Positions 6,321 through 22,115 of a stretch of 64,000 bases of DNA are shown here, piece by piece. The notes below the pieces were generated by a model. That model was not told where the DNA came from. It was given only the letters and a program-made list of their open reading frames with translations, and did no database searches. The stretch's first letter is position 1, and each line of letters starts with the position of its first letter. The position numbers and the translations under genes are program-made. Source of the stretch: a virus (lineage: Duplodnaviria; Caudoviricetes); IMG/VR virus record IMGVR_UViG_3300029288_000071, positions 32,001 to 96,000 of that record; one strand, written 5' to 3'.

Positions 6321-6674
6321 TTAGCCATTGATATCACCACTTACAGTATCAACATTACCAAGTATTTTATTTGCATTAACATCACCAGAAACTGTTTCAA
6401 CATCACCACTAACATCATTAGCTTTTACATCACCGGAAACAGTTTGAACATTGCCATCAACATCATGAACAATTACATCTCCACTTGCTGTATTTACTTT
6501 CTTAGCATTGCCAGTAATAGTAATAGTTTTGCAGGCATCTACATCTAGATTTTCAACATTACCTGAAATATTAATAATTAGATTTTCAAGTTGTGCTGAA
6601 ACTTCATTACCATCAACAATTACCTTGCCATTTTTTACAATAACATTATTTCCAGAAATATTAATACTAGTCAA
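6321..6674 (-). CDS. beta-strand repeat protein (DUF4097/bactofilin-like)
   Basis: Repeated GNVxTxSGDV units. Confidence 0.65.
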   Translation of the reverse strand: MTSINISGNNVIVKNGKVIVDGNEVSAQLENLIINISGNVENLDVDACKTITITGNAKKVNTASGDVIVHDVDGNVQTVSGDVKANDVSGDVETVSGDVNANKILGNVDTVSGDING

Positions 6675-8125
6675 TTATATTCTCCTCTTTGCATAAGATG
6701 AACATTACCATGTTTTAAAACTTGTTTTATATAATCTGGATTTGTATTATAAACTATCCAATTTACTTCTTTTGGCCGAATTGGAGGTGTAGTATAACTT
6801 GCACATCCATCAGTGAAAATAAAAATTGAATCATATTTTGATCTTACTTTATTATATAAAGTAATTACAGGTTCAAAATCAGTTCCACCACCTATATGAC
6901 AAGACATTCCTCTCTTAAATGGACGTGGTGCTTGATCTGAAGTTTTATTATCATAATATTTTCCTGATGCATCTAAAATTTCATCATTAAAAAATATAAT
7001 ATCAAATTTTGCATAGCGTTGAAGGTTATTTAAATGCGCACAAAAATCATTGTAAAGTGGTTTATCAATAGATCCAGATACATCAATTGCAACTAAAACT
7101 TTATGACCAACTTGCTGTCTTCTTTTTCCAGGAAATTGTAAACCATATCTTCGATTAGGAATTTTCCGAGTAAGTAAAGGAAGAATTGTAAATCCATGAA
7201 CTGAAGCATGTTTAGTTTGTCTCATCCATCCTGGAGTTTTCTTTTGAACACCTACATTTAGAACAACTGTATCTGATGTTGTATGACCAACTCCAGCTGG
7301 ACTCTCAACAAAAATATCTAAACCAGTTTGTGTTTTTATGTCTGATTTTGTTTTTTCTTCTTTTTCTTTTTCAGTCTCTTCATCTCCACCTTCACCCTCC
7401 TTTTTTTCTTTTTTATCAGGTGCAGGTATTGGAACAATAGAATTTCCTTTAATTACTTGTCCTGTTTTTTCATCAACTTCAACCCAATTACCATGACTAC
7501 CAATTCCCAAATCTTTGAATAATTTTCCCAAAGCATCAGCTAAAGCTTTTGCGTCTTTATAATTTTTCATCATTTTATCAATGATTGCTTTGTAGTAAAA
7601 TTCTGCATTTTGATTGGGAGGTAATTGTAGTTCTTTGTTTTCAGGAAATAAACCACCATGCCATTTTTTTGCTTCTTTATCTTGAAGTAAATCACGAATC
7701 ATTTGGTTAATTGCAAGATCACCAGCAATATTCCAAGCTTCAGCTTTTACTCTATCTTCATCTTCTTTTATAGCTAATTTCCCTCCAATAATCATTTTAG
7801 ATTTATATTCAGGAGTACGTGAAGTTGTATGATCTAAAATAATGTGCAAAGCTTCATGAAGAAGAACTCCCTTAAGTTGCTTATCAGTGAGTTCATCAAT
7901 GAAGTTTGGATTCCACATCATTTCATATTTACCTGTGAGTTCATTGGTAGTATCATAGAGTGGAGTTACACCTAATGTAGGACAAATTTTTTCATCATCA
8001 ACAATAATCATGTCAATGAAGTCAAAAATTTTATAGAGTTTTGGATATTCAGCATAGAGTTCAGCTCTATTAACTGCAACTCTAATATTTTGTTTGCTGT
8101 AATCTTTTTTCCAAATGGCTGCCAT
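6671..8125 (-). CDS. metallopeptidase + VWA domain protein (DUF2201-like)
   Basis: LLHEALH, WNIAGDLAIN, DVSGS MIDAS, GGGTDF, FTDG. Confidence 0.88.
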   Translation of the reverse strand: MAAIWKKDYSKQNIRVAVNRAELYAEYPKLYKIFDFIDMIIVDDEKICPTLGVTPLYDTTNELTGKYEMMWNPNFIDELTDKQLKGVLLHEALHIILDHTTSRTPEYKSKMIIGGKLAIKEDEDRVKAEAWNIAGDLAINQMIRDLLQDKEAKKWHGGLFPENKELQLPPNQNAEFYYKAIIDKMMKNYKDAKALADALGKLFKDLGIGSHGNWVEVDEKTGQVIKGNSIVPIPAPDKKEKKEGEGGDEETEKEKEEKTKSDIKTQTGLDIFVESPAGVGHTTSDTVVLNVGVQKKTPGWMRQTKHASVHGFTILPLLTRKIPNRRYGLQFPGKRRQQVGHKVLVAIDVSGSIDKPLYNDFCAHLNNLQRYAKFDIIFFNDEILDASGKYYDNKTSDQAPRPFKRGMSCHIGGGTDFEPVITLYNKVRSKYDSIFIFTDGCASYTTPPIRPKEVNWIVYNTNPDYIKQVLKHGNVHLMQRGEYN

Positions 8126-10193: not shown

Positions 10194-10430
10194 TTTTATA
10201 TTCTCTTTATTATTTCTCTCTTAATTTTTATTTATAGTCTTTCGACTCTCGCTACCACATTGGCTTACTTCTCCTTTCTTTGTTTCACTTATCCATACAG
10301 CTATAGTTTTCCAATATTCAATTTTGTTCCACAATATTGGTGCACATTGTATAATTTTTTCATTTTCAATAACAAATCCTGCACAGATATCTTTATAACA
10401 AATTCTATAAAGACCATCTTTCATACTTCT

Positions 10431-10805
10431 TTAAAATCCTTCATTAGCATATAATTCTTCAAGATCTTTTAAATTGCTAGGTGTATATTGATCCATTATC
10501 ATTGAAACTAATACTAAAGTTTTACTAGTAGAAAAAATATCAGGAAGATCTGTTTCTCCTTCATCACTTTCAGCTAGAATTTCATATACATTTCCCGTGT
10601 GTCCATGTTGAATAAGAAAATCTATCATTTTCTTACTAGTGATATGAGCATAGACATTTCCTTCTCTTTCTTGACCTTCTAATTCAACTAAATATTTAGT
10701 ATTACTGAGTTCTTTAGAATCTATTTCTTCTAAAGTAGTTTTTGCAGCAATACAAGCAAATGAGCTTGAACTAGAGTTACTAACAAAACCGAGTCGAGTT
10801 TTCAT
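10431..10805 (-). CDS. SNSSS-leader protein
   Basis: MKTRLGFVSNSSSSSF N terminus. Confidence 0.75.
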   Translation of the reverse strand: MKTRLGFVSNSSSSSFACIAAKTTLEEIDSKELSNTKYLVELEGQEREGNVYAHITSKKMIDFLIQHGHTGNVYEILAESDEGETDLPDIFSTSKTLVLVSMIMDQYTPSNLKDLEELYANEGF

Positions 10806-10841
10806 AAAATTCTCTCCTTTAATTTATATTTTTTAATTTCA

Positions 10842-11192
10842 TTATCCATCTCTCCAAGCTTCTTCAATAGTCCCAAATCTATTTTCTTCAATTTGATTAT
10901 CAAAAAGTTTATTTACTTCTTCTTTTACTCTTTGTTTAAATTGTGCTCCTGTTTCATTATCCTCTATTGAAGAATATGCTTGACCAATATAAAAGCAGTC
11001 AGAATATTCGCTACCATCAATAAAATAGAGCGATATATCTTTGTTTTTAGATTCTTCTTCTATTGCTTCATAAATACCTTCAGTATCAGGCAAATTTAAT
11101 ATTGTTTTGATTTCATTTGGATCTATGCTTATTCCATAGATACAAAATGATGTTGTACTGCTATTTGATATAAATCCTTTACGTGTTTTCAT
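10842..11192 (-). CDS. SNSSS-leader protein
   Basis: MKTRKGFISNSSTTSF N terminus (start moved to this Met). Confidence 0.75.
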   Translation of the reverse strand: MKTRKGFISNSSTTSFCIYGISIDPNEIKTILNLPDTEGIYEAIEEESKNKDISLYFIDGSEYSDCFYIGQAYSSIEDNETGAQFKQRVKEEVNKLFDNQIEENRFGTIEEAWRDG

Positions 11193-11193
11193 T

Positions 11194-11511
11194 TTAGCAA
11201 CTCCTTGTTCCACAATAAATTTTTATTTTTTCTGTGAAACCCAAATCTTTTAAAGTTTGAGTTAACTTTTCAATATTTATTTCATCTATTTCCATTTCTT
11301 TACCTTCAAAAGCATCCTCACCATCTACAATAACTTTTCCAATAAAGCAATATGATCCATCATCAGTTAAAATTTCTAGCTTTGTTTTTTCTATTTTTTG
11401 TATAAATTCATCAAAGTCATCATCTTCATTTTTTGATAATTGATGCTTTATTCCAAGAATAGCAAAAGATGATGAACTACTATTTGATATAAATCCATTT
11501 CTTGCTTTCAT
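11194..11511 (-). CDS. SNSSS-leader protein
   Basis: MKARNGFISNSSSSSF N terminus. Confidence 0.75.
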   Translation of the reverse strand: MKARNGFISNSSSSSFAILGIKHQLSKNEDDDFDEFIQKIEKTKLEILTDDGSYCFIGKVIVDGEDAFEGKEMEIDEINIEKLTQTLKDLGFTEKIKIYCGTRSC

Positions 11512-11931
11512 AATTATTTCCTAAGAGATATTTGGAACTTACAATTCTAATAAATCAAGTACATATTCATTGCATTTCATTTTCGTATTTCTCTATAAAT
11601 AAATAAAACAGGCCACAACAACAATAGAAGTATAGAAACTATTGCTATTAAATGTTTATTACTCTGTTCATGAGTATTACTTGCAGCACTAAAGATTAGA
11701 GCGACAATAGTGCCAATACAAAGATAGATAACTATACCAAAAGCTATAATAAAATTGTTCATAATGAAATTGCTTTTCCTCTTTTTTGATTACAATGAGG
11801 GCAAACTTCAAATACCCATTTAGTTTTACCACATTCACAAATTGTATTCTCAGGACATCCAATACTACATTCATAAACATGAATGTCTTCAAAGCATTTT
11901 TCAAATGGAATTTTTCCATCAGAACTCCATC

Positions 11932-13002
11932 TTATACTTCGTAAATCGGACATTCTCTATTCCTTTTTAATAGACTATTTCTAAATTCAACTGTTTTTGG
12001 ATTAAACCAAACATCTTTACTAAAATCAGTTTCTGAAGTAATCTGTAATCCTTCTTCCCAATTTTGACATCCTTCACAAAAAGAACAAGGACTGTATTTT
12101 CCCTCTACATTAATATATGCAGAGAACAAAGAAGATTCACATCTTTCAGATATTTGTAATAATTGCTTTTCATTTTCTAGTCCAACAATACTATTATCAA
12201 ATTTAACTGCAGAACAACTATCAAAACCAAAATTGATATCATTTTTTAAACAATATTCTACTAATGATTTAAATTGTTCATTAGTAACAGAAGTATAGTT
12301 ATTCTGAATAGCTCTTCCTTTTTTCTTTAAACTTAAAAATACTATTGCATTTAATTTAGATAAGCGAGTATCAGTTTTAATATCTTTCAAAACTTTAAAT
12401 GCTTCATCATACGTCTGTTGAGATAGAAAATAATGTATATTTGTTTGTTTTAATCCTTTATCAGATAACATTTTTACAGCATTATAACATTCATCAATAT
12501 CATAATATGAAACAGCACAAGCACCAATATACTTTAACATTTCATCAGCTTGATTTTCTGTTATTCGTCCATTAATAGTGATGTTGGGAATTAATCCAAT
12601 TTCTCGAGTATACTTTAGAATTTCAAATAATTCTGGATTGCCTGAAATATCTCCAATTCCATAAGCTACTTGACAAATTGAATGTTTTACTTTTGGTAAG
12701 ATTATTTTAACTTGCTCTAAAGACATGTTTTTGCCTAATGCTTTATTGTCTTTATAGCAAAATTTGCAACCCCTTTTACAGACTTCAGAAATTTCCATAT
12801 CAAGAATTTCAGGACCAAACATTGAAAATTCTGGATCTTGTTCTTTTGTATTACCCCATCTCTGAAAGAATCCATTTCTTTTATCAAAAGTATAATTGTA
12901 ATTTTTACTTTTAACAATTTTCATTTTATCAGTATCAATAACAAGAAATTTTTCCAAAAACAACTCCTTTTCTACAAACGTTTTTTTATTTAATATCATC
13001 AA
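11932..13002 (-). CDS. radical SAM protein with C-terminal SPASM/twitch-like Cys motif
   Basis: CKRGCKFC (CxxxCxxC); CESSLFSAYINVEGKYSPCSF...CP. Confidence 0.9.
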   Translation of the reverse strand: MMILNKKTFVEKELFLEKFLVIDTDKMKIVKSKNYNYTFDKRNGFFQRWGNTKEQDPEFSMFGPEILDMEISEVCKRGCKFCYKDNKALGKNMSLEQVKIILPKVKHSICQVAYGIGDISGNPELFEILKYTREIGLIPNITINGRITENQADEMLKYIGACAVSYYDIDECYNAVKMLSDKGLKQTNIHYFLSQQTYDEAFKVLKDIKTDTRLSKLNAIVFLSLKKKGRAIQNNYTSVTNEQFKSLVEYCLKNDINFGFDSCSAVKFDNSIVGLENEKQLLQISERCESSLFSAYINVEGKYSPCSFCEGCQNWEEGLQITSETDFSKDVWFNPKTVEFRNSLLKRNRECPIYEV

Positions 13003-13008
13003 AAAATT

Positions 13009-13551
13009 TCATAATTTTATAAAAGGGCCTTCAGAATCTCGTTTAGAAAGTATGGGAGGCTTTATTGTAATATTCCAATCAATATTTAATTTTGGATCAT
13101 TCCAAGCTACAGTAAATTGTTTTTCTTGTCCTTCATAATAAGTTGATTGTTTATAATGAAATATACAATGTGAAGACATACAATAATGACCATTTGCAAA
13201 CAAAGGTGGAATTAAAACTTGATGGTTGTTAGTTTCATTTAAGATAAACTCTTGATATTGACCATAAGTTTTTGAAGTTTGATTACAATCAACAATAATA
13301 AGTTTGAACTCACCATGTAAACATGAAACTAATTTCCAAGTAGTTTGATCTCCATGTAATCCTCTTAAAACATTCCATCTTGAATATGAAATATCATCTT
13401 GAACAAACTTAATTTGTGGAATATTTAATTGTGATAAAATATCAACAAAATCACTTTCATTAAATGTTTCAACATATTTTCCACGATGATCAATAAATTG
13501 TTTGGGCTTAATTAATAAAGCATTTTTAAATATAGTTTTTTCAAAGTTCAT
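13009..13551 (-). CDS. rfbC: dTDP-4-dehydrorhamnose 3,5-epimerase
   Basis: DHRGKYVE, FVQDDISYS, VLRGLH, FANGH, WNDP. Confidence 0.9.
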   Translation of the reverse strand: MNFEKTIFKNALLIKPKQFIDHRGKYVETFNESDFVDILSQLNIPQIKFVQDDISYSRWNVLRGLHGDQTTWKLVSCLHGEFKLIIVDCNQTSKTYGQYQEFILNETNNHQVLIPPLFANGHYCMSSHCIFHYKQSTYYEGQEKQFTVAWNDPKLNIDWNITIKPPILSKRDSEGPFIKL

Positions 13552-14533
13552 TTATTATTTTCCAAAGCTTCAGCTTGAATTTTAAGATCTTTTACTAAAA
13601 TGTGTTTTCTAAGTTGTTCATATTGTTTTTTAGTAACAAATTTCTTTTCATCATACCATTGAGTAATATCATAAAGCATTGCTAATTTTGAAAAATGACC
13701 AGATTTCTTTGTATCAAGTGCAGTTTTAAGTTCTTCATCAGTTACTAATTGAAAGAATAATTGAAGAGTTTGTTCTTCATCTGGAGTTAACTGTACTTTT
13801 TCAGTTAATCCAGGTTTAGATTTGAATGGATCAAATGGCGGATAAGAAACAGTATTTTTAGTTTTTTGTCTCATCATTTTTTACTTTAGTACATAAGTAA
13901 TTAATGACCGGTTGTAAACTTCTAGGATTTTTATTTATTTCGCAATTTAACACATCACATCTATGTCCAGTTGAGGACGTCCAATAATAATTCCCATGAG
14001 AATCTTCATGGGGAACATAATCAGTAGGTTCTTCAGGTAATATATGTTCCATAACTTAAGCATTTATTTTGTATTATAAATTTCTGAATAGATAGATTTT
14101 AAATTATCATCAAGATCAAGAATTTCAAATTCATAAAAACGAGGAGATAAATATTTTAAATCTCCAGAAAAAGATCTTGGCACAAATTTTTCTTCATCAA
14201 CATTCTCATAACATTTAATTGCAACTTCAATTGATTTACTCCAAACTGCCCAAATACAATTTTCCCAATCACAATTGCCATCTTTTTTTGCTGCTTTTTC
14301 TAATTCTTCTTTAATTTTGTCAAAGGGAACTACTATTCCAAAAAATTCTTTGCTTTTATCTTGAATTTCAGTAGCTTTTACTAAATGTCCTGCTAGAAAT
14401 TTATCAAAACTTTTAGAAGCTTTAATATCAGTTCGATTCAAAATTGCAGGGTGTCTAAAACCTCTTCTACTCATTTTTTGTTTTCTTTCTAATTTATTTA
14501 ATGTTCATTTAACAGTAAACAACTTTAGATAAA

Positions 14534-14971
14534 TTATTTTTTAACTCGTTCAATTTGCAATTTTCCATCAGGGAAAACAATAATTAAAGGCTTTCTATGT
14601 TTTCGAGCAGCTCTAATTGTTGACCAAGTTCCTGATCTAAGTTTTTCTTTAGATTCAGCTGGAGTTGCTATCATTAAATCTGATTCAACAACTATGTCTT
14701 TATTTCTAATCAAATATTCTTTTGTATCAAGAATTTTATCACCAGGGCAGAATGCTCGTAAAGTAGAGTTTGTTGGAGGGTGAACTACTATAATGACATC
14801 ATCTTTTAGATTGTTTCGGACAAAAAAGTGAAAATCAGTATCGGCTCCAAAACAATCTCCATGATGGACTTCTTCTATTTTATGACCAGATAAACTTGAA
14901 AATACTTTGGCCATAGCTTTATTTTGTGCAAAAGTGAAACCTTGTCGATTCCCTGTAAATCCTATCTTCAT
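14534..14971 (-). CDS. SLOG-superfamily protein
   Basis: IGFTG.R, HHGDCFGAD, RNKDIV, RSGTWSTI. Confidence 0.75.
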   Translation of the reverse strand: MKIGFTGNRQGFTFAQNKAMAKVFSSLSGHKIEEVHHGDCFGADTDFHFFVRNNLKDDVIIVVHPPTNSTLRAFCPGDKILDTKEYLIRNKDIVVESDLMIATPAESKEKLRSGTWSTIRAARKHRKPLIIVFPDGKLQIERVKK

Positions 14972-15063
14972 GACTTTTGCTCCAATTATCTTTTATTAAT
15001 TTGTTATAGATAATTTAATACTTAACAACTTAACAGTAAATAACTGGCCAAAATAAACTCTAT

Positions 15064-15303
15064 TCAAAGGTAGTATTTAGCATATCTTTGATTGGTTAAA
15101 TCCTTCTTTAGAACTGATTTAATCGGATAGTTATCATCTTTCATTTCAGAAATTCGGGCTGCAAGACGTCTGATTTTATAGACTTCTTGGGCTTCTACTT
15201 GAGAAATTCCACGAATTTTAAGATGTTCTAAAATGACATATTTTTGAGTACCTATTGGATAAATATTAAGTATTTTTGATTTCTTTTTCATTTTTTCTTC
15301 CAC
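15064..15303 (-). CDS. small HTH protein
   Basis: ISQVEA...RLAARISEMK...YAKYYL. Confidence 0.7.
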   Translation of the reverse strand: MEEKMKKKSKILNIYPIGTQKYVILEHLKIRGISQVEAQEVYKIRRLAARISEMKDDNYPIKSVLKKDLTNQRYAKYYL

Positions 15304-15788
15304 AATATTTCTGTTCTTCTATTGTATTTTCTATTTGTTTCTATATCATTTAAAGCTACAGGTTGTTTTGCTCCAAAACCTTCACCAGAAATAGTACCAA
15401 GACACTTATACTTTGATAATAATTCACATACATTATTTGCTCTTTTATTGGAGAGTTTTAAATTAGTTATTTCTAATCCTGAATTATCAGTATGACCTTT
15501 TACAATTACTATTGATGCTAAATTATGTTGAGCTACATATAGAACTACATTAGAATCTAAAATCTCACTTGAATTAATTTCAAAATATATAATAGAAATA
15601 GTATCAATTAATTTTTGAGATTTAGATGTTTCTAAGTCTCTAATTTTTTTTAAAATTGGATCTTCATATTTATAGTAAGTTTCAGGAGTAGGATCTACTT
15701 CATTAATAAATGCTAAATATAAGAAGTAACCTAAAATAAGTCCAAGAATAGAAAATATTATAATTTGTTGAGTTAATTTTTTATTCAT
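15288..15788 (-). CDS. OmpA-family peptidoglycan-binding membrane protein
   Basis: N-terminal TM; GHTDNSG, NLKLSNKRA, GFG, NRRTEI. Confidence 0.85.
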   Translation of the reverse strand: MNKKLTQQIIIFSILGLILGYFLYLAFINEVDPTPETYYKYEDPILKKIRDLETSKSQKLIDTISIIYFEINSSEILDSNVVLYVAQHNLASIVIVKGHTDNSGLEITNLKLSNKRANNVCELLSKYKCLGTISGEGFGAKQPVALNDIETNRKYNRRTEILWKKK

Positions 15789-16441
15789 TTTTTATCAAAG
15801 ATAGTAATAGAAGCAGATGTAGAAGCAATATTTTCTTCTACTTTCTTCAAATCTTTTTTAATATCTTTGTTAAGAAGTTGTTTCATTCTCATCTGTCCTG
15901 CTTTTTCTACATGAGAGTGTTTTATATTTTGTTCTACTTCAGTAGCTTCAGCTTTTAGTTTAATTTGTTCTTTAAGCTTAAAAACTTCATCATAAACTTC
16001 ATTTCGCCGATTTACTAACATTTCTATTAATTCAAGTGCAGAATCAGGATAATTTGTTTTTGCTCCAAAAGCTTCATCCCAATCACCTACATCAAAATTT
16101 GCAGCTGAAAGATTACTATCCATTATTGTAACATCATAATCAATAGTAATTCCTTTAGTTTTAAGATATTTTTTGATTTCTTGATTATTCATAAACCCAT
16201 ACCAATTAACAAGAATAACAAATTTATCTAAAAACTTATTAAGTTTTGCTTCATTATCAGGAGCTGGATATCCTTGTTTCCAAAATATCATGTCAGAAAC
16301 TGCTTCAAATTCTTTTGGTGGGCGGTTAAAAACTTTATCGAAGATACTTCTTAAAGCTTTGAAAATTGTTCTACGAGAATATTGATCTTTTTTGAGGTCG
16401 GCTATTTCGTCTACATTTTTCTCATATTTTTTTGTGTCCAT
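15785..16441 (-). CDS. hypothetical protein
   Basis: 218-aa ORF. Confidence 0.65.
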   Translation of the reverse strand: MDTKKYEKNVDEIADLKKDQYSRRTIFKALRSIFDKVFNRPPKEFEAVSDMIFWKQGYPAPDNEAKLNKFLDKFVILVNWYGFMNNQEIKKYLKTKGITIDYDVTIMDSNLSAANFDVGDWDEAFGAKTNYPDSALELIEMLVNRRNEVYDEVFKLKEQIKLKAEATEVEQNIKHSHVEKAGQMRMKQLLNKDIKKDLKKVEENIASTSASITIFDKK

Positions 16442-16454
16442 AAATCTTTCTGGT

Positions 16455-16945
16455 TTAGTTTGTTGATCTTTCTAATATTAAAATTCTTCCATCGGATTCA
16501 AATTCATCTACAAAATCTTTTAAAATACTTGAAAAATTTGAATCTTCTTCCCATCTTGCAATTATAGAATTATCTGGAAGATCTTTAATTAACCTATATT
16601 GCTTATTCTTGCATGTCTTACACTATCAAGATCATCACATATAGTTTCAATTTCATCAAGTTTCTGCATCAATTTTGTATCAAATCTATACTTTGATATT
16701 TTTGCTAGTTTTTCTTTTAAAAATTTTTCATCTTTCAGTAGAACTTTTTGTTCTTTTAAAAGATCTTCTTTACGATTTTTTACAGTGTCTCTAAAGATTT
16801 CTAATTGTGAAGAATGAGCAGTATTAGTAATTCTTTTTAAAATAAATTCAAAAGTTTTAAAAGATAAATCTTTTGGTTCTGGTTTAAAACAAACCATAAA
16901 TGATGTAGTACTACTATTACTAACAAAACCTTTTCTAGTTTTCAT
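16455..16945 (-). pseudogene. SNSSS-leader protein, apparently frameshifted near 16600
   Basis: MKTRKGFVSNSSTTSF ORF stops at 16589; a coding-like frame LIKDLPDNSIIARWEED...ERSTN* continues to 16455. Confidence 0.5.
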
Positions 16946-17151
16946 AAAATTTTCATGTGTTTTTTAAAATGTTTTTCTAAATCTTTTTTATCCCAATTGA
17001 AAATGTCTTTGTCAGAAATATGTTGTACTTTATAAGATTTTTTGTTTACTTTAAGAACTCTATATTTACAACCACAATCTTCTAGAAGAATAGTATCTTT
17101 TTTGATTTTCATTTTAATTTAATACTTAAGATTTTCAATGTAAACAAAAAC

Positions 17152-19089
17152 TTAAGATATTTTTATTCCTGTAATCTTTTCAAAATCTTTTTCAGAAATA
17201 GCTTGAACATTAAGTTGATTTGCTTTTGTCAATTTAGAACCGGGATCTATACCGACGATTAAGTAATCAAGATTCTTATTAACTCCGGCTATTTTTCCGC
17301 CATTATCAGTAATTATTTTTTCAACTTCAGTTCTTTTCTTACTTAATGTTCCAGTAATACAAAAAGTTTTTCCTGTTAAGTTACCAGCAACTGGAGCTGC
17401 TGGTTCTTCAATTTCAATATAAGGAAGAACTTGTTTAATAAATGTTTGTTTGTCTGAGAGTCCTTCATAAATTGCATCTCCAGTTTTTGGGCCTACAATA
17501 AGTTTTAATTGAGTTAAGTCAAAATTTTTGTCAATTAAATCATCAAAATCTATAGTTTCAAGAACTTTAGAAAATGTTCTTTCTCCAGCTCCTGTGATTC
17601 CTAATGATTTAAGAAATTTGCTTTTTGAAATTTTGATGTTATGTAATTGATCCCAAAGTGATGCAGATTGAGTAGGACCAAAACCAACTTTAGCAAAATC
17701 TTCAACACTAATTTCAAATAGATCTTTAGAATCAAGTATTCCTGAATCTACAAGCATTTCAATTGATTTAACTGAAAATCCTTCTATTTCAAGACATCTA
17801 AAAAAGTGTAAAAGAGTTGCAGCTATTTGTGAAGGGCAACTAGAATTTAAGCAAATTAAATGAGCACCTTGATGTTTAATAATTGGTGATGAACAAGAAG
17901 GACAGTGGTTCGGAATATTTAATCTTCGATTTTTAGGGCGAGAAACTACTGAAACTAATTTTGGAATAATTTCATTTGCTTTTTCAATTAATACTGTATC
18001 TCCAATTGCAACATCATTACTTTTGATATAATCAATATTATTTAAAGTTACTCTTCTTACAGATGTTCCAGCTATTTGAACTTCTTTAACTTGCATTACA
18101 GGAACAATTTTTCCTGTCCTAGTTGTTGACCATTCAATATCTAAAACTTCAGTTTCTTTTTTATCCGTTTCAAATTTATAAGCAAGAGCTCCTTTTGGAG
18201 TATAATCTTTAATTCCATAACTATTGAATTCTTTTTTGTTATTTACCCAAAATACAATTCCATCTAAATCATAATGAGATTTTTGTCTAAATTCTGTAAA
18301 ATATTGAATTGCTTCATCAACTAAAATTATATCTTTTGTTGATAACATTTTATATTCTACTACTTCAAATCCGAGATCTTTAAGGAGAATCAACTCGTCT
18401 TCTTTATTACGGTTAATTGTAGATTCATCAAATAAAATATATGAAACAAAACTTAAATTTCTTTGTCCTGTAATTTTTGCTTCTTTTTGTTTGAGAGAAC
18501 CTGATGCATAATTTCTGGGATTCTTGAAAGGTTCAGTTCTTCCAGCTAATTTTTGTATTTCTTTTTCATTTTCATAAAACCACTTGTTATCTACATAAAT
18601 TTCTCCACGAATTTCAATTTTACTATTTAGTGGAACAGGTGAATTTATTTTTTTTGGAATATTTTTGATAAATTTAACATTATCAAGAACATTTTCTCCA
18701 ATTAATCCGTTTCCTCTAGTTACAGCTTTACTCAAATTATAAATTCCACCATAATATTCGTATGTAAGTGAAAGAGAGCAACCATCAATTTTGGGCATTG
18801 CAACTAAAGTTTTGCCAGTATATTCATCATAAATTTCTTCTGGAGTATGACATTTCAAAAGACTTCCCATTGGAAATTCATGTTTCAATTTTTCACCAAA
18901 AGTGCTTTCACCAAGTTCAGAAAAAACTGAATTATTAGGATCTAATTTTTTCAGTTCTTTGACAAGATTATCATATTCAAAATCTGAAATTTCTGGTGAG
19001 TCTTGATTATAATACAAATCATTATGATGTCTGATTTGTTTTACTAAATCATCAATGATGGGAGAATTTAACATTGTTTTATTGGCCAT
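17152..19089 (-). CDS. ligA: NAD-dependent DNA ligase
   Basis: YY..ISDFEYD, KIDG, RGE, NPRN, DGIV, Zn finger, BRCT. Confidence 0.95.
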   Translation of the reverse strand: MANKTMLNSPIIDDLVKQIRHHNDLYYNQDSPEISDFEYDNLVKELKKLDPNNSVFSELGESTFGEKLKHEFPMGSLLKCHTPEEIYDEYTGKTLVAMPKIDGCSLSLTYEYYGGIYNLSKAVTRGNGLIGENVLDNVKFIKNIPKKINSPVPLNSKIEIRGEIYVDNKWFYENEKEIQKLAGRTEPFKNPRNYASGSLKQKEAKITGQRNLSFVSYILFDESTINRNKEDELILLKDLGFEVVEYKMLSTKDIILVDEAIQYFTEFRQKSHYDLDGIVFWVNNKKEFNSYGIKDYTPKGALAYKFETDKKETEVLDIEWSTTRTGKIVPVMQVKEVQIAGTSVRRVTLNNIDYIKSNDVAIGDTVLIEKANEIIPKLVSVVSRPKNRRLNIPNHCPSCSSPIIKHQGAHLICLNSSCPSQIAATLLHFFRCLEIEGFSVKSIEMLVDSGILDSKDLFEISVEDFAKVGFGPTQSASLWDQLHNIKISKSKFLKSLGITGAGERTFSKVLETIDFDDLIDKNFDLTQLKLIVGPKTGDAIYEGLSDKQTFIKQVLPYIEIEEPAAPVAGNLTGKTFCITGTLSKKRTEVEKIITDNGGKIAGVNKNLDYLIVGIDPGSKLTKANQLNVQAISEKDFEKITGIKIS

Positions 19090-20029
19090 TGAACTACTCC
19101 TTTATAATTGATAAGTATAATTTAATACTTAACAACTTAACAGTAAATATATGGCAGAAATAATTTTTCAGTGTTCTACAATAACAATGAATTCTGTTCC
19201 TTCAGGAGAATTTATCTCATTTATAGAAATAAGTCCATCAAAACCAATTTGTTTAAGCAGATTTTTTATGATTAATTTATTTGATTGTTGGTTCATTGGA
19301 ACAAAAACTGAAAGTTTTTGACCAACTTCTGGAATGTTAATTTGTAGATCTGAGATTATTAATAATTGAGAATAGATATCACTTCTAATACTTAAATTTG
19401 GGTGTTTTACAAAAGGAACGCCTGGTTTTACATTCATAACTTCTCCACTTTGAAATTAATTTAAAGACTCTTAAAGTAGAAGGCATTGCTCCTTCTCTTG
19501 ATAAGAAATTTCAATATCGGCATGGCCGCAATCCCAATGCATATTTCCACGCATAAGGATTGTTTCTTATCTGTGCATCTATTTACACCATACTTTAAGA
19601 GTCATAAGTTATTTATGAATTCAAAAACCTCTGGATCATTTATTGTACAACCAATTATCCAGCTTAATTTTTTACATCCAAAATCTTGAACAAAAACAGT
19701 TTTAACTCCATGCTTTACACTTAATTTTTCATTTAATGGAATTTCAAAAATAAATTTGTAAATGTGATGATCCATATCTAAAGGAATTTGTAAAATTGCT
19801 TTAGGAAACAAATCAAATTTTCTTGCTGTTATACAATGGTTCAACACAAATTGATAAAATGAAAGTTTTTCTGAAGAAAAACATCTTTTAAAATCTTCTT
19901 TATTGAATCCATCATATTGTTGAGATTCAGGTTTCATTTTATTTCTGTTTATATCCATATTTTTCCTTTTGTTTTGTTAAGTAAATCTAATACTTAATGG
20001 TGACAAAAGAAATAAGCTGTAAAAATATT

Positions 20030-21322
20030 TCAATTAAGAGCTTTTAGATTGATAAGTGGTTTAATTCTATTTATTATTTCTGCAGTTGGTTCAATAGCTG
20101 CTTCGATTACTGAAGCTGACTTATAAGCATCTGGTGCTTCATCAAGTGTAGCATTAACTACTGAAGTAGAATAAATTTCTTTCATTTGTTCTTTAAAAGT
20201 TTCTAAAGATAAAGTTCTTTTTGCTACACCTCTAGCAAGAACTCTTCCTGCACCATGAGGGGCAGATTCATTCCATTCTTTATTTCCTTTTCCTTTACAA
20301 ATAAGAATGCCATCTCTCATATTAAATGGAATGATCATAACTTCATCTTTATGAGCACTAATTGCTCCTTTTCTAATAATCATATCTTTGAAGTCAATAT
20401 AATTATGTATTGATTCAATTTCTTCATCTATGTTCGCATTTGATATTACTTTGTTAAGTATCAATTTTTGCATTTGTTTTCTATTCCATTTAGCATACTC
20501 TTGTGCAAAAATCATATCTTCTAAATATCCTTGAGCATCTGATTTTATAAGATATTCTAATTCATTTGAAACTTTATCTGCTCTACCATAAATTTTTAAT
20601 CTAGCTAATTTGATATCTTGACTAATTCTTTGTCTAAGTTCAGGAGTAGTTGCATTAGCTTTTATTAAATCAGTAGCTTTTTTCATTTCTAAATCAAGTA
20701 AAGTTTTATCTTTATTTTGTGCAACTTTAGTCCAATAATTTGCAATTTTTAAACCAAAATTTCTAGAACCAGAATGAATAGTTAACCAAATTTTATCTTC
20801 TAAATCTCTTCCTACTTCAATAAAATGATTTCCACCACCTAAAGTACCAATTGAATTACAAGCATATTTAACATTTACATTAATTTGTTTACATTTATCT
20901 TCAAACCATTTCATATTAAAGAGTTCTGTTCCGCTAAATTTATATACTGCTTTATTTGCTTCTTCCCAAGGAAATTCTTTTTCAAAGTTAAGAATAGCTC
21001 TATTATGAATTTCTTGCCCAAAAGGAATATATTTTCTTATTTCAGAATTAATAAGAGCTTTGTTAATATCTTCTACTTTAATTCTAGTAGCTAACATACC
21101 ACAACCAATATCTACTCCAATTGTGTTTGGAATAATTTTATCAGTTAATGGCATTGTAAAACCCACAACACTTCCCTTTCCTGCATGACAATCAGGCATG
21201 ATAACAACTTGATTTGTAAATGCAGGATGATTGATAAATTTTGTAATTTGAGCTATACACTCTTCTTCAACACTATCAATCATAATTTTTGCTGAAGTAT
21301 ATTTTCCGTTTAATGTAAACAT
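20030..21322 (-). CDS. rtcB: RtcB RNA 3'-phosphate/5'-OH ligase
   Basis: MPDCHAG, GVDIGCG, GTLGGGNHFIE, HSGSR, HNY, HGAGR, DEAP.AYK. Confidence 0.95.
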   Translation of the reverse strand: MFTLNGKYTSAKIMIDSVEEECIAQITKFINHPAFTNQVVIMPDCHAGKGSVVGFTMPLTDKIIPNTIGVDIGCGMLATRIKVEDINKALINSEIRKYIPFGQEIHNRAILNFEKEFPWEEANKAVYKFSGTELFNMKWFEDKCKQINVNVKYACNSIGTLGGGNHFIEVGRDLEDKIWLTIHSGSRNFGLKIANYWTKVAQNKDKTLLDLEMKKATDLIKANATTPELRQRISQDIKLARLKIYGRADKVSNELEYLIKSDAQGYLEDMIFAQEYAKWNRKQMQKLILNKVISNANIDEEIESIHNYIDFKDMIIRKGAISAHKDEVMIIPFNMRDGILICKGKGNKEWNESAPHGAGRVLARGVAKRTLSLETFKEQMKEIYSTSVVNATLDEAPDAYKSASVIEAAIEPTAEIINRIKPLINLKALN

Positions 21323-21323
21323 G

Positions 21324-22115
21324 CTATGACCATGATATATTTTTGATTGTTATGTAGTTTTTAAGCTTATCAGGAACAAGTTCATCACTATAAGAGTTTG
21401 TAGTATAAATATGATCAATACCTTCTAAAGGTAAGCCTTTAGAAAATATTCCATGACTGACATAAAGGATAATTTTTTGTGCTCCAGCTTTTTTCAATTC
21501 TTTCGCTAATCCAACAAATGTTCCACCACCATCACATAAATCATCTGCTATTAATACATCTTCTCCATTGACTAATTCAGGCTTTTCAATTTTAAATCCA
21601 GATAATTTTCCAGTTGCCATCTCTCTTACTTTAGAACATTTTACAATAACAGACATTATTCGATTGAGCCATTGAAAAGCTCCTTTATCTGGAGATACAA
21701 GTTTTATTCCTGGATATAAAGCTAGAACTTCATTAATTTGATTTTTGGGCAAAATATTTTTTGCTCTTAAAAGTTTTTCACTAACTTCTGAATGAACATT
21801 AAATAAAGTTATTTTGTTGAAGTTGGCTGAATTGAGAATATCAGTAATTACTTTTAAAGTAAAAGGTTGATTCTCGTCTATTGGACGATCCATCCGAGCA
21901 CCCATAAGATAAGCAATTTCAAGATTCACATAAGAAGCTTTTCTGCGGAGGATTTCATTTAGCTGCATTATGTTAAGTAATTCATCTGAGTTTCTAATAC
22001 TACATCTAATAGTATAATCTGGTGCAGCTACAAGACCTTCAGGAATATTTACATGTGGTTGCCCATCAGGAAACTTGAAAGTTTCAATTTTATGTCCATT
22101 TATAGTTGTTTTCAT
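21324..22115 (-). CDS. ribose-phosphate pyrophosphokinase-like protein (Adps-like)
   Basis: FPDGQ, ARMDR, SPDKGA, DDLCDGGGTF, VSHGIFS. Confidence 0.88.
   Translation of the reverse strand: MKTTINGHKIETFKFPDGQPHVNIPEGLVAAPDYTIRCSIRNSDELLNIMQLNEILRRKASYVNLEIAYLMGARMDRPIDENQPFTLKVITDILNSANFNKITLFNVHSEVSEKLLRAKNILPKNQINEVLALYPGIKLVSPDKGAFQWLNRIMSVIVKCSKVREMATGKLSGFKIEKPELVNGEDVLIADDLCDGGGTFVGLAKELKKAGAQKIILYVSHGIFSKGLPLEGIDHIYTTNSYSDELVPDKLKNYITIKNISWS

What the first reader, a model, noticed from the sequence alone, without database searches (positions are those of the whole stretch)
10431..16945. Radical SAM enzyme with four proteins sharing an MKxRxGF(V/I)SNSS(S/T)(S/T)SF leader
Seen: ORFs ending at 10431, 10842, 11194 and 16589 share a near-identical 16-residue N terminus but otherwise differ; three lie in tandem just downstream of a radical SAM/SPASM-like gene. 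Known: SPASM/twitch enzymes typically modify peptides or proteins, including Ser/Cys in sulfatase maturation. Inference: a phage post-translational modification system in which one maturase modifies a Ser-rich N-terminal tag on several client proteins. I know of no characterised function for this leader.
Basis: partly seen in the sequence, partly recalled or inferred. Interest (0 to 1): 0.85.

Follow-up and report, generated by a model that had tools for sequence, protein, structure and literature searches.

The report
Phage radical-SAM enzyme with serine-tagged proteins
Four otherwise unrelated small proteins of a 207-kb landfill phage begin with the same 16-18-residue serine-rich peptide; across well over a hundred phage genomes this peptide travels with one radical-SAM enzyme that is predicted to clamp it in its active site, which points to an undescribed system in which one enzyme probably modifies many different phage proteins.

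Summary
Four minus-strand genes (10431-10805, 10842-11192, 11194-11511, 16589-16945) start with MK(T/A)RxGF(V/I)SNSS(S/T)(S/T)SF. These are the only four such genes in the 207-kb genome. Three lie just downstream of a radical-SAM gene (11932-13002).

- **A general tag.** I counted 495 distinct tagged genes in about 165 loci, in same-strand arrays of up to 15. The tag sits on at least 11 body families with no detectable relationship to each other. Conservation is at the protein level: all six Ser codons are used at each Ser position.
- **Linkage holds both ways.** Of 76 viral records picked by the tag, 62 carry this radical-SAM family (20 of 21 near-complete ones). Of 66 loci picked by the enzyme, 60 have tagged genes within 10 kb, always on the same strand. 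The enzyme is found in only 183 of 50,697 cultured-phage records, almost all of them in one clade, the one that also carries the tag.
- **Predicted binding.** A co-fold places tag residues 1-18 in the enzyme's barrel and against its auxiliary-cluster domain (score 0.83, best control 0.02).
- **Closest structures.** These are the peptide maturases SuiB, SkfB and CteB.

Covalent modification and its chemistry remain inferred. I found no paper describing the system. Earlier agents of this scan reported the same system on other DNA, including phage RB43.

The parts
11932..13002 (-). Radical-SAM enzyme with a single conserved auxiliary-cluster (twitch-like) C-terminal domain and an all-beta N-terminal domain carrying the conserved GFFxRWG strand. 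It runs 356 aa from the TTG at 13002; the public gene call gives 341 aa, which would start at about 12957.
   Evidence: Pfam Radical_SAM E 3e-8, SPASM below cut-off. phrog_7293 E 4e-86. Invariant C75/C79/C82 plus C263/C288/C306/C351 in 38 homologues. AlphaFold pLDDT 91.7. Best PDB neighbours are SuiB, SkfB and CteB.
11194..11511 (-). Tagged protein 3 (105 aa, acidic, pI of body 4.5). The tag is encoded at 11458-11511.
   Evidence: The body is shared only with the closest relative L083. pI.
10842..11192 (-). Tagged protein 2 (116 aa from the ATG at 11192, acidic, pI of body 4.1). The tag is encoded at 11139-11192. The body belongs to a recurrent family ending ...EAWRDG.
   Evidence: The body is found behind the tag in 30 other loci.
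10431..10805 (-). Tagged protein 1 (124 aa, acidic, pI of body 4.4). The tag is encoded at 10752-10805. The body is an orphan.
   Evidence: The only hit among 5.8 billion proteins is itself. No match for the body in 165 loci.
16589..16945 (-). Tagged protein 4 (118 aa, basic, pI of body 9.1, helical-looking). The tag is encoded at 16892-16945. It lies 3.6 kb upstream of the enzyme on the same strand, and its start overlaps the stop of the preceding ORF.

Best explanation
The window holds one copy of a widespread, phage-borne enzyme-and-substrate system.

**The enzyme.** The radical-SAM enzyme at 11932-13002 has a CX3CX2C cluster and one auxiliary Fe-S cluster.

**Recognition.** It recognises the extreme N-terminus M-K-x-R-x-G-F-V-S-N-S-S-S-S-S-F-[IV]-[IV] of newly made proteins.
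- Tag residues 2-7 pair as a beta strand with the enzyme's conserved GFFxRWG strand.
- Residues 7-18 run through the barrel next to SAM and along the auxiliary-cluster domain.

**Reaction (inferred).** The 5'-deoxyadenosyl radical then abstracts a hydrogen from the tag. The most likely site is in or next to the absolutely invariant S9-N10-S11-S12 core. The auxiliary cluster takes up the electron, so the outcome would be oxidative: a cross-link or an alcohol-to-carbonyl oxidation.

**Clients.** One enzyme thereby serves every tagged protein of the phage. There are four here and up to 15 elsewhere. Their bodies are unrelated, small, mostly acidic and turn over fast, as expected of early host-takeover or counter-defence proteins.

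**Shown versus inferred.** Shown here: the tag, its protein-level invariance, its modularity, the two-way genomic linkage and synteny, and a co-fold that passes its controls. Inferred: that binding leads to a covalent change, which residue is changed, the chemistry, and the biological role of the bodies.
For: **(1) The tag is a module.**
- There are 375 tagged ORFs (305 unique) in the first 83 sources and 495 distinct tagged genes in all.
- They always start at an ATG (495 of 495), always at the N-terminus, and always lie on one strand in arrays of up to 15.
- N10 and S11 are invariant in 356 of 356 unique tags, S12 in 355, R4 in 354, K2 in 353 and S9 in 351. Conservation collapses after residue 18.

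**(2) Selection acts on the protein.** All six Ser codons are used at each Ser position and all six Arg codons at R4.

**(3) The bodies are unrelated.** They fall into 91 BLAST clusters. The 11 largest show no profile-profile similarity (all below 4% probability). None of 68 bodies has a Pfam domain.

**(4) Linkage from tag to enzyme.** 37 of 50 plus 25 of 26 viral records with the tag hold phrog_7293 at E 1e-38 to 1e-273. Among records at least 90% complete the count is 20 of 21, and most of the other records without it are small fragments. 13 of 14 MAG or genome assemblies with the tag also hold it.

**(5) Linkage from enzyme to tag.** 60 of 66 loci chosen by the enzyme alone have tagged genes within 10 kb, all on the enzyme's strand and mostly starting less than 1.5 kb after its stop. 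By contrast, only 21 of the 66 have the commonest body family.

**(6) Low base rate.** The enzyme hits 183 of 50,697 cultured-phage records. Nearly all are the RB16/RB43/KP15 clade, which also carries the tag (175 records). Vibrio phage D479 has the enzyme plus 5 tagged genes.

**(7) Co-fold.**
- Scores were 0.83, 0.81 and 0.87 against a best control of 0.02. This mark was reached by 58 of 80 solved complexes and by 2 of 110 mismatched pairs.
- The runs share at least 64% of their contacts, and the partner's pLDDT is at least 52.
- The interface is tag residues 1-18 against enzyme residues 43-50, the barrel-lining residues 111-115, 138-142, 160-163, 186-190 and 221-223, and the auxiliary-cluster region 257-265, 283-294 and 306-308.
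- 16 of the enzyme's 29 invariant residues lie in this interface (p = 3e-8).

**(8) Structural neighbours.** The enzyme's nearest solved structures are peptide-modifying maturases: SuiB (E 9e-11, TM 0.61), SkfB and CteB.

**(9) The tag is a tail in the commonest tagged family.** Residues 1-11 have pLDDT below 50 in an otherwise confident model (pLDDT 86).
Against: - No chemical evidence exists. No mass shift, no activity assay and no expression data were available.
- A co-fold shows a plausible pose, not catalysis, and a docking peptide would score the same. It was also run with my own alignments and with small molecules riding along, which the calibration did not cover.
- In the commonest body family, tag residues 13-20 form the first strand of the fold. 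The enzyme would therefore have to act before folding.
- In the RB16/KP15 clade the enzyme lies 20 kb from the tagged genes. The linkage there is at genome level only.
- One complete 225-kb record with a weak tag-family match lacks the enzyme (G068). Six enzyme loci have no tag within 10 kb.
- G6 and F7, the residues modelled deepest in the barrel, are not strictly invariant (G 335 of 356, F 341 of 356).
- A later check of an earlier report of this scan priced the covalent-change claim at 45 in 100 (e1-127136).
Confidence: 0.55

Rival explanations
1. Docking tag without covalent change. The tag is an address peptide that plugs into the radical-SAM enzyme and recruits the variable bodies as specificity, regulatory or inhibitory subunits. 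The enzyme's real substrate would then be something else, for example a host molecule bound by the body, or another part of the body.
For: The same linkage and co-fold data fit a docking peptide equally well. The variable, fast-evolving bodies look like target-recognition modules. The N-terminal beta-strand pairing with GFFxRWG resembles leader binding rather than catalysis.
Against: The tag is modelled inside the barrel, against the SAM-binding strands and the auxiliary-cluster ligands C263, C288 and C306. That is where substrates sit, so a second substrate would have no access. The near-absolute invariance of S9-N10-S11-S12 over enzymes that are only 40-50% identical exceeds what leaders of peptide-maturase systems usually show.
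Confidence: 0.2
2. Indirect linkage. The tag serves another purpose, such as a sorting or packaging signal like the T4 capsid-targeting sequence, a stability or degradation signal, or a co-translational signal. The radical-SAM enzyme would merely belong to the same functional module without touching the tag.
For: Shared N-terminal peptides on unrelated phage proteins have a precedent in the T4 internal proteins (own knowledge). In RB16 the enzyme and the tagged genes are 20 kb apart.
Against: The co-fold score is 0.83 against 0.02 for the controls, with exactly residues 1-18 in the interface. Gene order is tight on one strand in 60 of 66 enzyme-selected loci. No other gene is conserved with the pair; the most frequent other neighbours are IMPDH in 17 loci and a C5 methyltransferase in 9. 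The bodies are acidic (median pI 4.6), unlike the basic DNA-associated internal proteins of T4.
Confidence: 0.1
3. Ordinary part of one fold. The motif is simply the first strand and loop of a single divergent protein family (phrog_7397), conserved for structural or catalytic reasons of its own.
For: The commonest family always carries the tag: nearly all of the top 150 of 1,797 cluster representatives start their body match at residue 21-24. It also has conserved Asp, Glu and His residues at its C-terminus. In its model, residues 13-20 form strand 1.
Against: At least 11 body families show no profile similarity to each other. Bodies range from 42 to 275 aa. Residues 1-11 are unstructured in the model. 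The enzyme travels with the tag (60 of 66 loci) rather than with that family (21 of 66). This window's phage has no member of that family.
Confidence: 0.04
4. A nucleic-acid element. The shared 5' coding sequence would be a DNA or RNA signal, such as a recombination site or a translational operator, rather than a peptide.
For: It always sits at the translation start.
Against: All six Ser codons, from both codon boxes, are used at each Ser position, and all six Arg codons at R4, across 495 copies. The four window copies differ at synonymous sites and their upstream regions do not align.
Confidence: 0.01

Closest known systems
Radical-SAM SPASM/twitch peptide maturases with leader-bearing precursors (SuiB/StrB with SuiA, CteB with CteA, SkfB with SkfA)
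   Same: They are the best structural neighbours of the enzyme: SuiB E 9e-11 and TM 0.61, then SkfB and CteB. They share a CX3CX2C cluster plus a C-terminal auxiliary-cluster domain. As in those systems, one enzyme gene sits next to several precursor genes that share a conserved N-terminal recognition sequence, and the enzyme has an N-terminal domain that binds the peptide by strand pairing.
   Different: Sequence similarity is marginal: SkfB E 0.06, and only over the radical-SAM core. The conserved part here is also the part modelled in the active site, so there is no separate leader and core. The 'precursors' are full proteins of 42-275 aa with unrelated bodies, and there is no protease or exporter gene. 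The N-terminal domain is all-beta rather than a PqqD-like winged helix. The system is virtually confined to large phages.
Anaerobic sulfatase-maturating enzymes (AtsB, ChuR, anSMEcpe) and their many sulfatase clients
   Same: One radical-SAM enzyme serves many full-length client proteins through a short shared motif near their N-termini, acts before folding, and oxidises Ser or Cys with auxiliary clusters taking the electron. anSMEcpe is among the structural matches (E 4e-7, TM 0.55).
   Different: The clients lack the (C/S)xPxR motif. The enzyme conserves only four C-terminal Cys, enough for one auxiliary cluster rather than two. No anSME family model matched it. The clients are unrelated proteins, not one enzyme family.
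FxsB / FxSxx-COOH systems and other three-residue cyclophane synthases (XyeB, GrrB)
   Same: These have variable proteins with a conserved terminal peptide containing F-x-S beside a radical-SAM/SPASM gene (Kaur et al. 2020, PMC7159879, read). FxsB-type enzymes make cyclophanes (review PMC10114670). The tag contains F7-V8-S9, and F7 is modelled deepest in the barrel.
   Different: In those systems the conserved peptide is C-terminal, sits in bacterial vWA-MoxR conflict systems and is released by a peptidase. No FxsB model matched the enzyme. F7 is Leu in 6 of 356 tags, whereas N10, S11 and S12 never or almost never vary. vWA genes are not linked to the tag.
Capsid-targeting sequence of T4 internal proteins (IPI, IPII, IPIII, Alt)
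   Same: A short shared N-terminal peptide on otherwise unrelated, fast-evolving phage proteins encoded in variable arrays (own knowledge).
   Different: There is no sequence likeness. The partner here is a radical-SAM enzyme, not the prohead protease. The bodies are acidic. The co-fold puts the tag in the enzyme.

Membership tests
Radical SAM superfamily (PF04055) | CX3CX2C motif for the SAM-binding [4Fe-4S] cluster and a partial TIM-barrel core | tested here: met
   C75, C79 and C82 are invariant or nearly so in 38 homologues. Pfam score is 34.4 bits against a cut-off of 29.5. The barrel is modelled at pLDDT 91.7, and 321 PDB matches at E<=0.001 are led by radical-SAM enzymes.
SPASM domain (PF13186 / TIGR04085) | [quoted passage not shown] | tested here: not met
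   Pfam SPASM scores 16.6 bits against a cut-off of 21.5. Only C263, C288, C306 and C351 are conserved across the family. The window's extra Cys in CSFCEGC are absent from homologues such as L002.
Twitch-type radical-SAM enzymes (BtrN, MoaA, SkfB) | Truncated SPASM-like C-terminal domain binding a single auxiliary cluster | tested here: inconclusive
   Four invariant C-terminal Cys and a GX4C element fit one cluster. SkfB is the second-best structural neighbour. Cluster content cannot be tested in silico.
Anaerobic sulfatase-maturating enzymes | Client motif (C/S)xPxR, and membership of the anSME sequence family | tested here: not met
   None of the 356 unique tags has such a motif. NCBIfam gave only weak core matches to W-cofactor and NirJ maturases, far below their cut-offs.
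RiPP maturases with an RRE (PqqD-like) leader-binding domain | N-terminal winged-helix RRE that binds the leader as an added strand | tested here: inconclusive
   There is no PqqD-type Pfam match. The modelled N-terminal domain is five beta strands without helices, yet it binds tag residues 2-7 by strand pairing in the co-fold.
FxsB / three-residue cyclophane synthases | An aromatic-x-x motif in the substrate, and membership of the FxsB/XyeB sequence families | tested here: inconclusive
   F7-V8-S9 is present in 341 of 356 tags, but F7 is Leu in 6. No FxsB model was among the NCBIfam matches at E<=0.01.
Glycyl-radical enzyme / activase pairs | An RVxG[FWY] motif with a strictly invariant Gly inside a large barrel protein, and an activase without a SPASM or twitch domain | tested here: not met
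   The tag reads R-x-G-F, so the Arg is one residue closer to the Gly. G6 is replaced (S, C, R, K, Y and others) in 21 of 356 tags. The enzyme carries an auxiliary-cluster domain.
phrog_7397 (phage family of unknown function) | Full-length match: N-terminal tag plus the C-terminal YSDxDG...EH...H...H body | tested here: not met
   The window's proteins match only profile positions 1-28 to 1-70, at E 5e-4 to 6e-3, and one does not match at all. They share the tag, not the body.

The most novel reading that the evidence does not exclude
Large phages use a dedicated radical-SAM enzyme to install a radical-derived modification on the extreme N-terminus of dozens of unrelated, full-length, mostly acidic early proteins. 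The modification could be a reactive carbonyl or an intramolecular cross-link in the invariant S-N-S-S core. Under this reading the modification is required for those proteins to work in host takeover or counter-defence. It would be a new class of enzyme-installed protein tag rather than a peptide natural product.
Probability: 0.3. Interest if true: 0.9.

Novelty: new variant of a known kind. Interest (0 to 1): 0.78.

Why it matters
**Scale.**
- The enzyme family has at least 1,498 members.
- The commonest tagged family alone spans 1,797 clusters at 50% identity.
- None carries any annotation beyond 'hypothetical protein' or 'radical SAM'.

**What it would change.** If one enzyme modifies many unrelated full-length proteins through a portable 18-residue handle, radical-SAM peptide chemistry extends from small natural products to a proteome-wide tagging system in viruses. 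That would also explain a recurrent block of 'dark' early genes in jumbo and T4-like phages. It might further give a short genetically encodable tag for enzymatic protein modification.

**Testability.** The system is directly testable, because it is present in cultured E. coli, Klebsiella and Vibrio phages (RB16, RB43, KP15, D479).

Tried and rejected
**Searches that found nothing or were uninformative**
- Nucleotide search of 10400-17200 against cultured phages: no match.
- tblastn of a metagenomic tagged protein (P0021) against cultured phages: no match. The bodies are too divergent and the tag is low-complexity. The RB16 copy had to be found through phrog_7397.
- Word-based search with tagged protein 1 alone: only itself. 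ESM Atlas for the same protein: no usable lead, best score 0.88, model pLDDT 0.47.
It was redone with 10 sequences.
- Commonest tagged body, fold search: no Foldseek hit at E<=0.001 and best VIA Z of 3.2. This means no known fold was identified, not that the fold is new.
- Pfam on 68 tagged proteins: nothing beyond one weak zinc-ribbon match.
- Literature: no paper holds the motif string, and none links a phage radical-SAM enzyme with a serine-rich N-terminal tag. The KP15/KP27 genome paper does not discuss these genes.
- Sequencing runs: no RNA holder listed. The DNA is held by landfill metagenomes.
- The promoter and terminator scan is at the level of its shuffled controls in this AT-rich DNA.

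**Links considered and rejected**
- vWA/MIDAS proteins, which sit next to the tagged genes in RB16 and 2.3 kb away here: found in only 2 and 8 of 145 loci.
- The RmlC-like gene, the Cys-rich 64-aa ORF and the other neighbours: shared only with the closest relative, L083.
- Microcystis and Lak phage 'hits' to the enzyme: partial matches to other radical-SAM subfamilies.
- Glycyl-radical and epimerase chemistries were considered. Both are disfavoured: G6 varies, and the enzyme has no conserved Cys beyond the cluster ligands.


Full report
**What is in the window**

The window is part of a 207,030-bp contig whose first 30 bases recur 144 bp from its end, so it is a complete or nearly complete large phage genome with about 29% G+C. 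The DNA is held by landfill metagenomes. Phage identity is clear from 27 tRNA genes, RtcB, an NAD-dependent ligase and tail and virion proteins.

All genes in 9-20 kb lie on the minus strand.
- 10431-10805, 124 aa
- 10842-11192, 116 aa from the ATG
- 11194-11511, 105 aa
- 16589-16945, 118 aa

After residue 18 they are 25-30% identical at best. No fifth copy exists in the genome. The DNA copies differ at synonymous positions and their upstream regions do not align.

The gene at 11932-13002 is a radical-SAM enzyme:
- It carries the CX3CX2C motif and passes Pfam Radical_SAM above its cut-off. Its SPASM match is below the cut-off.
- It matches phrog_7293 at E 4e-86.
- Three tagged genes follow it after two small ORFs. 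The fourth lies 3.6 kb upstream.

**The tag is general and modular**

Two distant jumbo-phage relatives of the enzyme (39-42% identity) also had tagged genes a few kb downstream. Typical members belong to phrog_7397, a family of unknown function.

In 78 viral loci fetched with that family, in 66 fetched with the enzyme and in 18 from genome assemblies, I counted 495 distinct tagged genes. In the first 83 sources there were 375 such ORFs, 305 of them unique. They stand in same-strand arrays of up to 15, and the tag is always at the very N-terminus.

Among 356 unique tags the conservation is as follows:

| Position | Count of 356 |
|---|---|
| N10, S11 | 356 |
| S12 | 355 |
| R4 | 354 |
| K2 | 353 |
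| S9 | 351 |
| V8 | V or I only |
| F7 | 341 |
| G6 | 335 |
| F16 | 330 |
| S13-S15 | tolerate T, A, C, G |

Conservation disappears after residue 18. All six Ser codons are used at each Ser position, all six Arg codons at R4, and the start codon is ATG in 495 of 495 copies. Selection therefore acts on the peptide.

The bodies behind the tag have these properties:
- They fall into 91 BLAST clusters, and the 11 largest are unrelated by profile-profile comparison, all below 4% probability.
- None of 68 bodies has a Pfam domain.
- They are small (median 138 aa), have no long hydrophobic runs and are acidic. Median pI is 4.6, and 86% are below 5.5 against 31% of neighbouring ORFs.
- In this window, body 2 belongs to a family found in 30 other loci. 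Body 3 is shared only with the closest relative, L083, whose enzyme is 75% identical. phmmer found no match for bodies 1 and 4 in any fetched locus, L083 included. Turnover is fast.

**Linkage with the enzyme**

*From tag to enzyme.*
- 37 of 50 and 25 of 26 viral records contain phrog_7293 at E 1e-38 or better.
- Among records at least 90% complete the count is 20 of 21. Most of the other records without it are small fragments.
- Of 14 assemblies with the tag, mostly MAGs, 13 have the enzyme.

*From enzyme to tag.* 60 of 66 loci selected only by the enzyme have tagged genes within 10 kb. All are on the enzyme's strand, and most begin within 1.5 kb of its stop.

*The partner is the tag, not a body family.* Only 21 of those 66 loci have the commonest body family, and this window's phage has none.

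*Breadth and base rate.*
- The enzymes form at least 40 lineages below 85% identity, all 38-50% identical to the window's, so this is not one clade counted many times.
- Only 183 of 50,697 cultured-phage records have the enzyme. They are essentially the RB16/RB43/KP15 group, which carries the tag in 175 records (RB16p111 and RB16p106).
- Vibrio phage D479 has the enzyme and five tagged genes.

*No third partner.* No other gene is consistently linked. IMPDH appears in 17 loci and a C5 methyltransferase in 9. vWA proteins appear in 2 and 8 of 145 loci. The RmlC-like gene and the remaining neighbours are shared only with L083.

**Physical contact**

I co-folded the enzyme (38-row alignment) with residues 1-45 of tagged protein 1 (68-row alignment), plus SAM and two clusters riding along.
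- Scores were 0.83, 0.81 and 0.87, against 0.00-0.02 for three controls. That mark was reached by 58 of 80 solved complexes and by 2 of 110 mismatched pairs.
- The runs agree in at least 64% of their contacts, and the partner's pLDDT is at least 52.
- The calibration did not include riding ligands or user-supplied alignments.

The interface is exactly tag residues 1-18:
- Residues 2-7 pair with enzyme residues 43-49, the conserved GFFxRWG strand.
- F7 touches Q111, N140, A161 and Q186 on the SAM-binding strands.
- The remainder runs along 257-265, 283-294 and 306-308, which include the auxiliary-cluster ligands.
- 16 of the enzyme's 29 invariant residues lie in the interface (p = 3e-8).

Related structural results:
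- The enzyme model is confident (pLDDT 91.7). Its best solved neighbours are SuiB, SkfB and CteB, followed by anSME, EpeE and BtrN among others.
- In the model of the commonest tagged family (pLDDT 86), residues 1-11 are an unstructured tail and residues 13-20 form the first strand.
- No known fold was found for that body.

**Mechanism**

The best-supported reading is that the tag is the enzyme's substrate.
- Seven Cys are conserved: three for the SAM cluster and four for one auxiliary cluster.
- No spare conserved Cys remains to donate a hydrogen. This argues against epimerisation and for an oxidative outcome.
- Variation at G6 and F7 argues against a glycyl radical and weakens a Phe-based cyclophane, although F7-V8-S9 resembles the FxS motif of FxsB systems.
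- The never-varying S9-N10-S11-S12 core is the most likely site.

None of this chemistry is shown. A docking role without covalent change remains a serious rival.

**Relation to what is known**

The system works like a multi-precursor radical-SAM peptide-maturase cluster, or like anSME with its many sulfatases. It fails the defining tests of SPASM, anSME and glycyl-radical families, and the FxsB test is inconclusive (see the membership table).

It also differs from those systems in several ways:
- The recognition and reaction sites are one invariant N-terminal peptide.
- The clients are full-length and unrelated.
- The distribution is almost purely viral.

I found no paper that describes it.

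After reaching these conclusions I consulted the scan's earlier notes. At least eight earlier reports describe the same tag-enzyme pairing on other DNA, including RB43. So this window adds a new member and independent re-measurements rather than a first sighting. One later check priced the covalent-modification claim at 45 in 100, which I took into account in my confidence.

Noticed in passing
window 25577-46998: 27 tRNA genes on the minus strand, none of them tRNA-Ser, in a phage whose tag is serine-rich.
   Followed up: no
window 1935-49279 and elsewhere in the genome: A second, unrelated shared peptide, LMxK(M/I)GY, occurs 29 times in the 207-kb genome (17 in the window). It sits mostly within 10 residues of the C-terminus of small minus-strand ORFs. 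Earlier notes of the scan on this genome describe it. None of the four serine-tagged proteins carries it.
   Followed up: partly
window 6671-8125 (-): A 484-aa protein with a putative metallopeptidase domain (DUF2201_N, HExxH) fused to a VWA-like domain (DUF2201). PHROGs labels the family 'HNH endonuclease', which looks like a misnomer. It is not linked to the tag system.
   Followed up: partly
window 13009-13551 (-): A dTDP-4-dehydrorhamnose 3,5-epimerase (RmlC-like cupin, E 2e-44) lies directly upstream of the radical-SAM gene. It is shared only with the closest relative L083, so it is not part of the conserved system.
   Followed up: yes
window 17152-22115 (-): An NAD-dependent DNA ligase (645 aa), an RtcB-type RNA ligase (20030-21322) and a ribose-phosphate pyrophosphokinase-like gene (21324-22115) lie in a row.
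   Followed up: no
L083:13406-13711: In the closest relative, the homologue of tagged protein 2 (body ending EAWRDG) begins MKIRK but lacks the GFVSNSSSSSF stretch in that frame. A motif match lies just upstream at about 13366, in a frame I did not check. This may be a frameshift, an assembly error or natural tag loss.
   Followed up: no
L148-L165 (genome contigs): Tag-plus-enzyme contigs are binned into MAGs labelled Patescibacteria, Nanoarchaeota, Heimdallarchaeota, Omnitrophota and others. An RB16-like 178-kb contig sits in a Flagellimonas marina isolate assembly. These are most likely phage contigs mis-binned or co-assembled, not cellular genes.
   Followed up: partly
17 loci, e.g. L034:11696-13111: An IMP dehydrogenase / GMP reductase gene (E 1e-137) lies within 10 kb of the tag arrays in 17 loci. 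It is absent from this window's neighbourhood.
   Followed up: no
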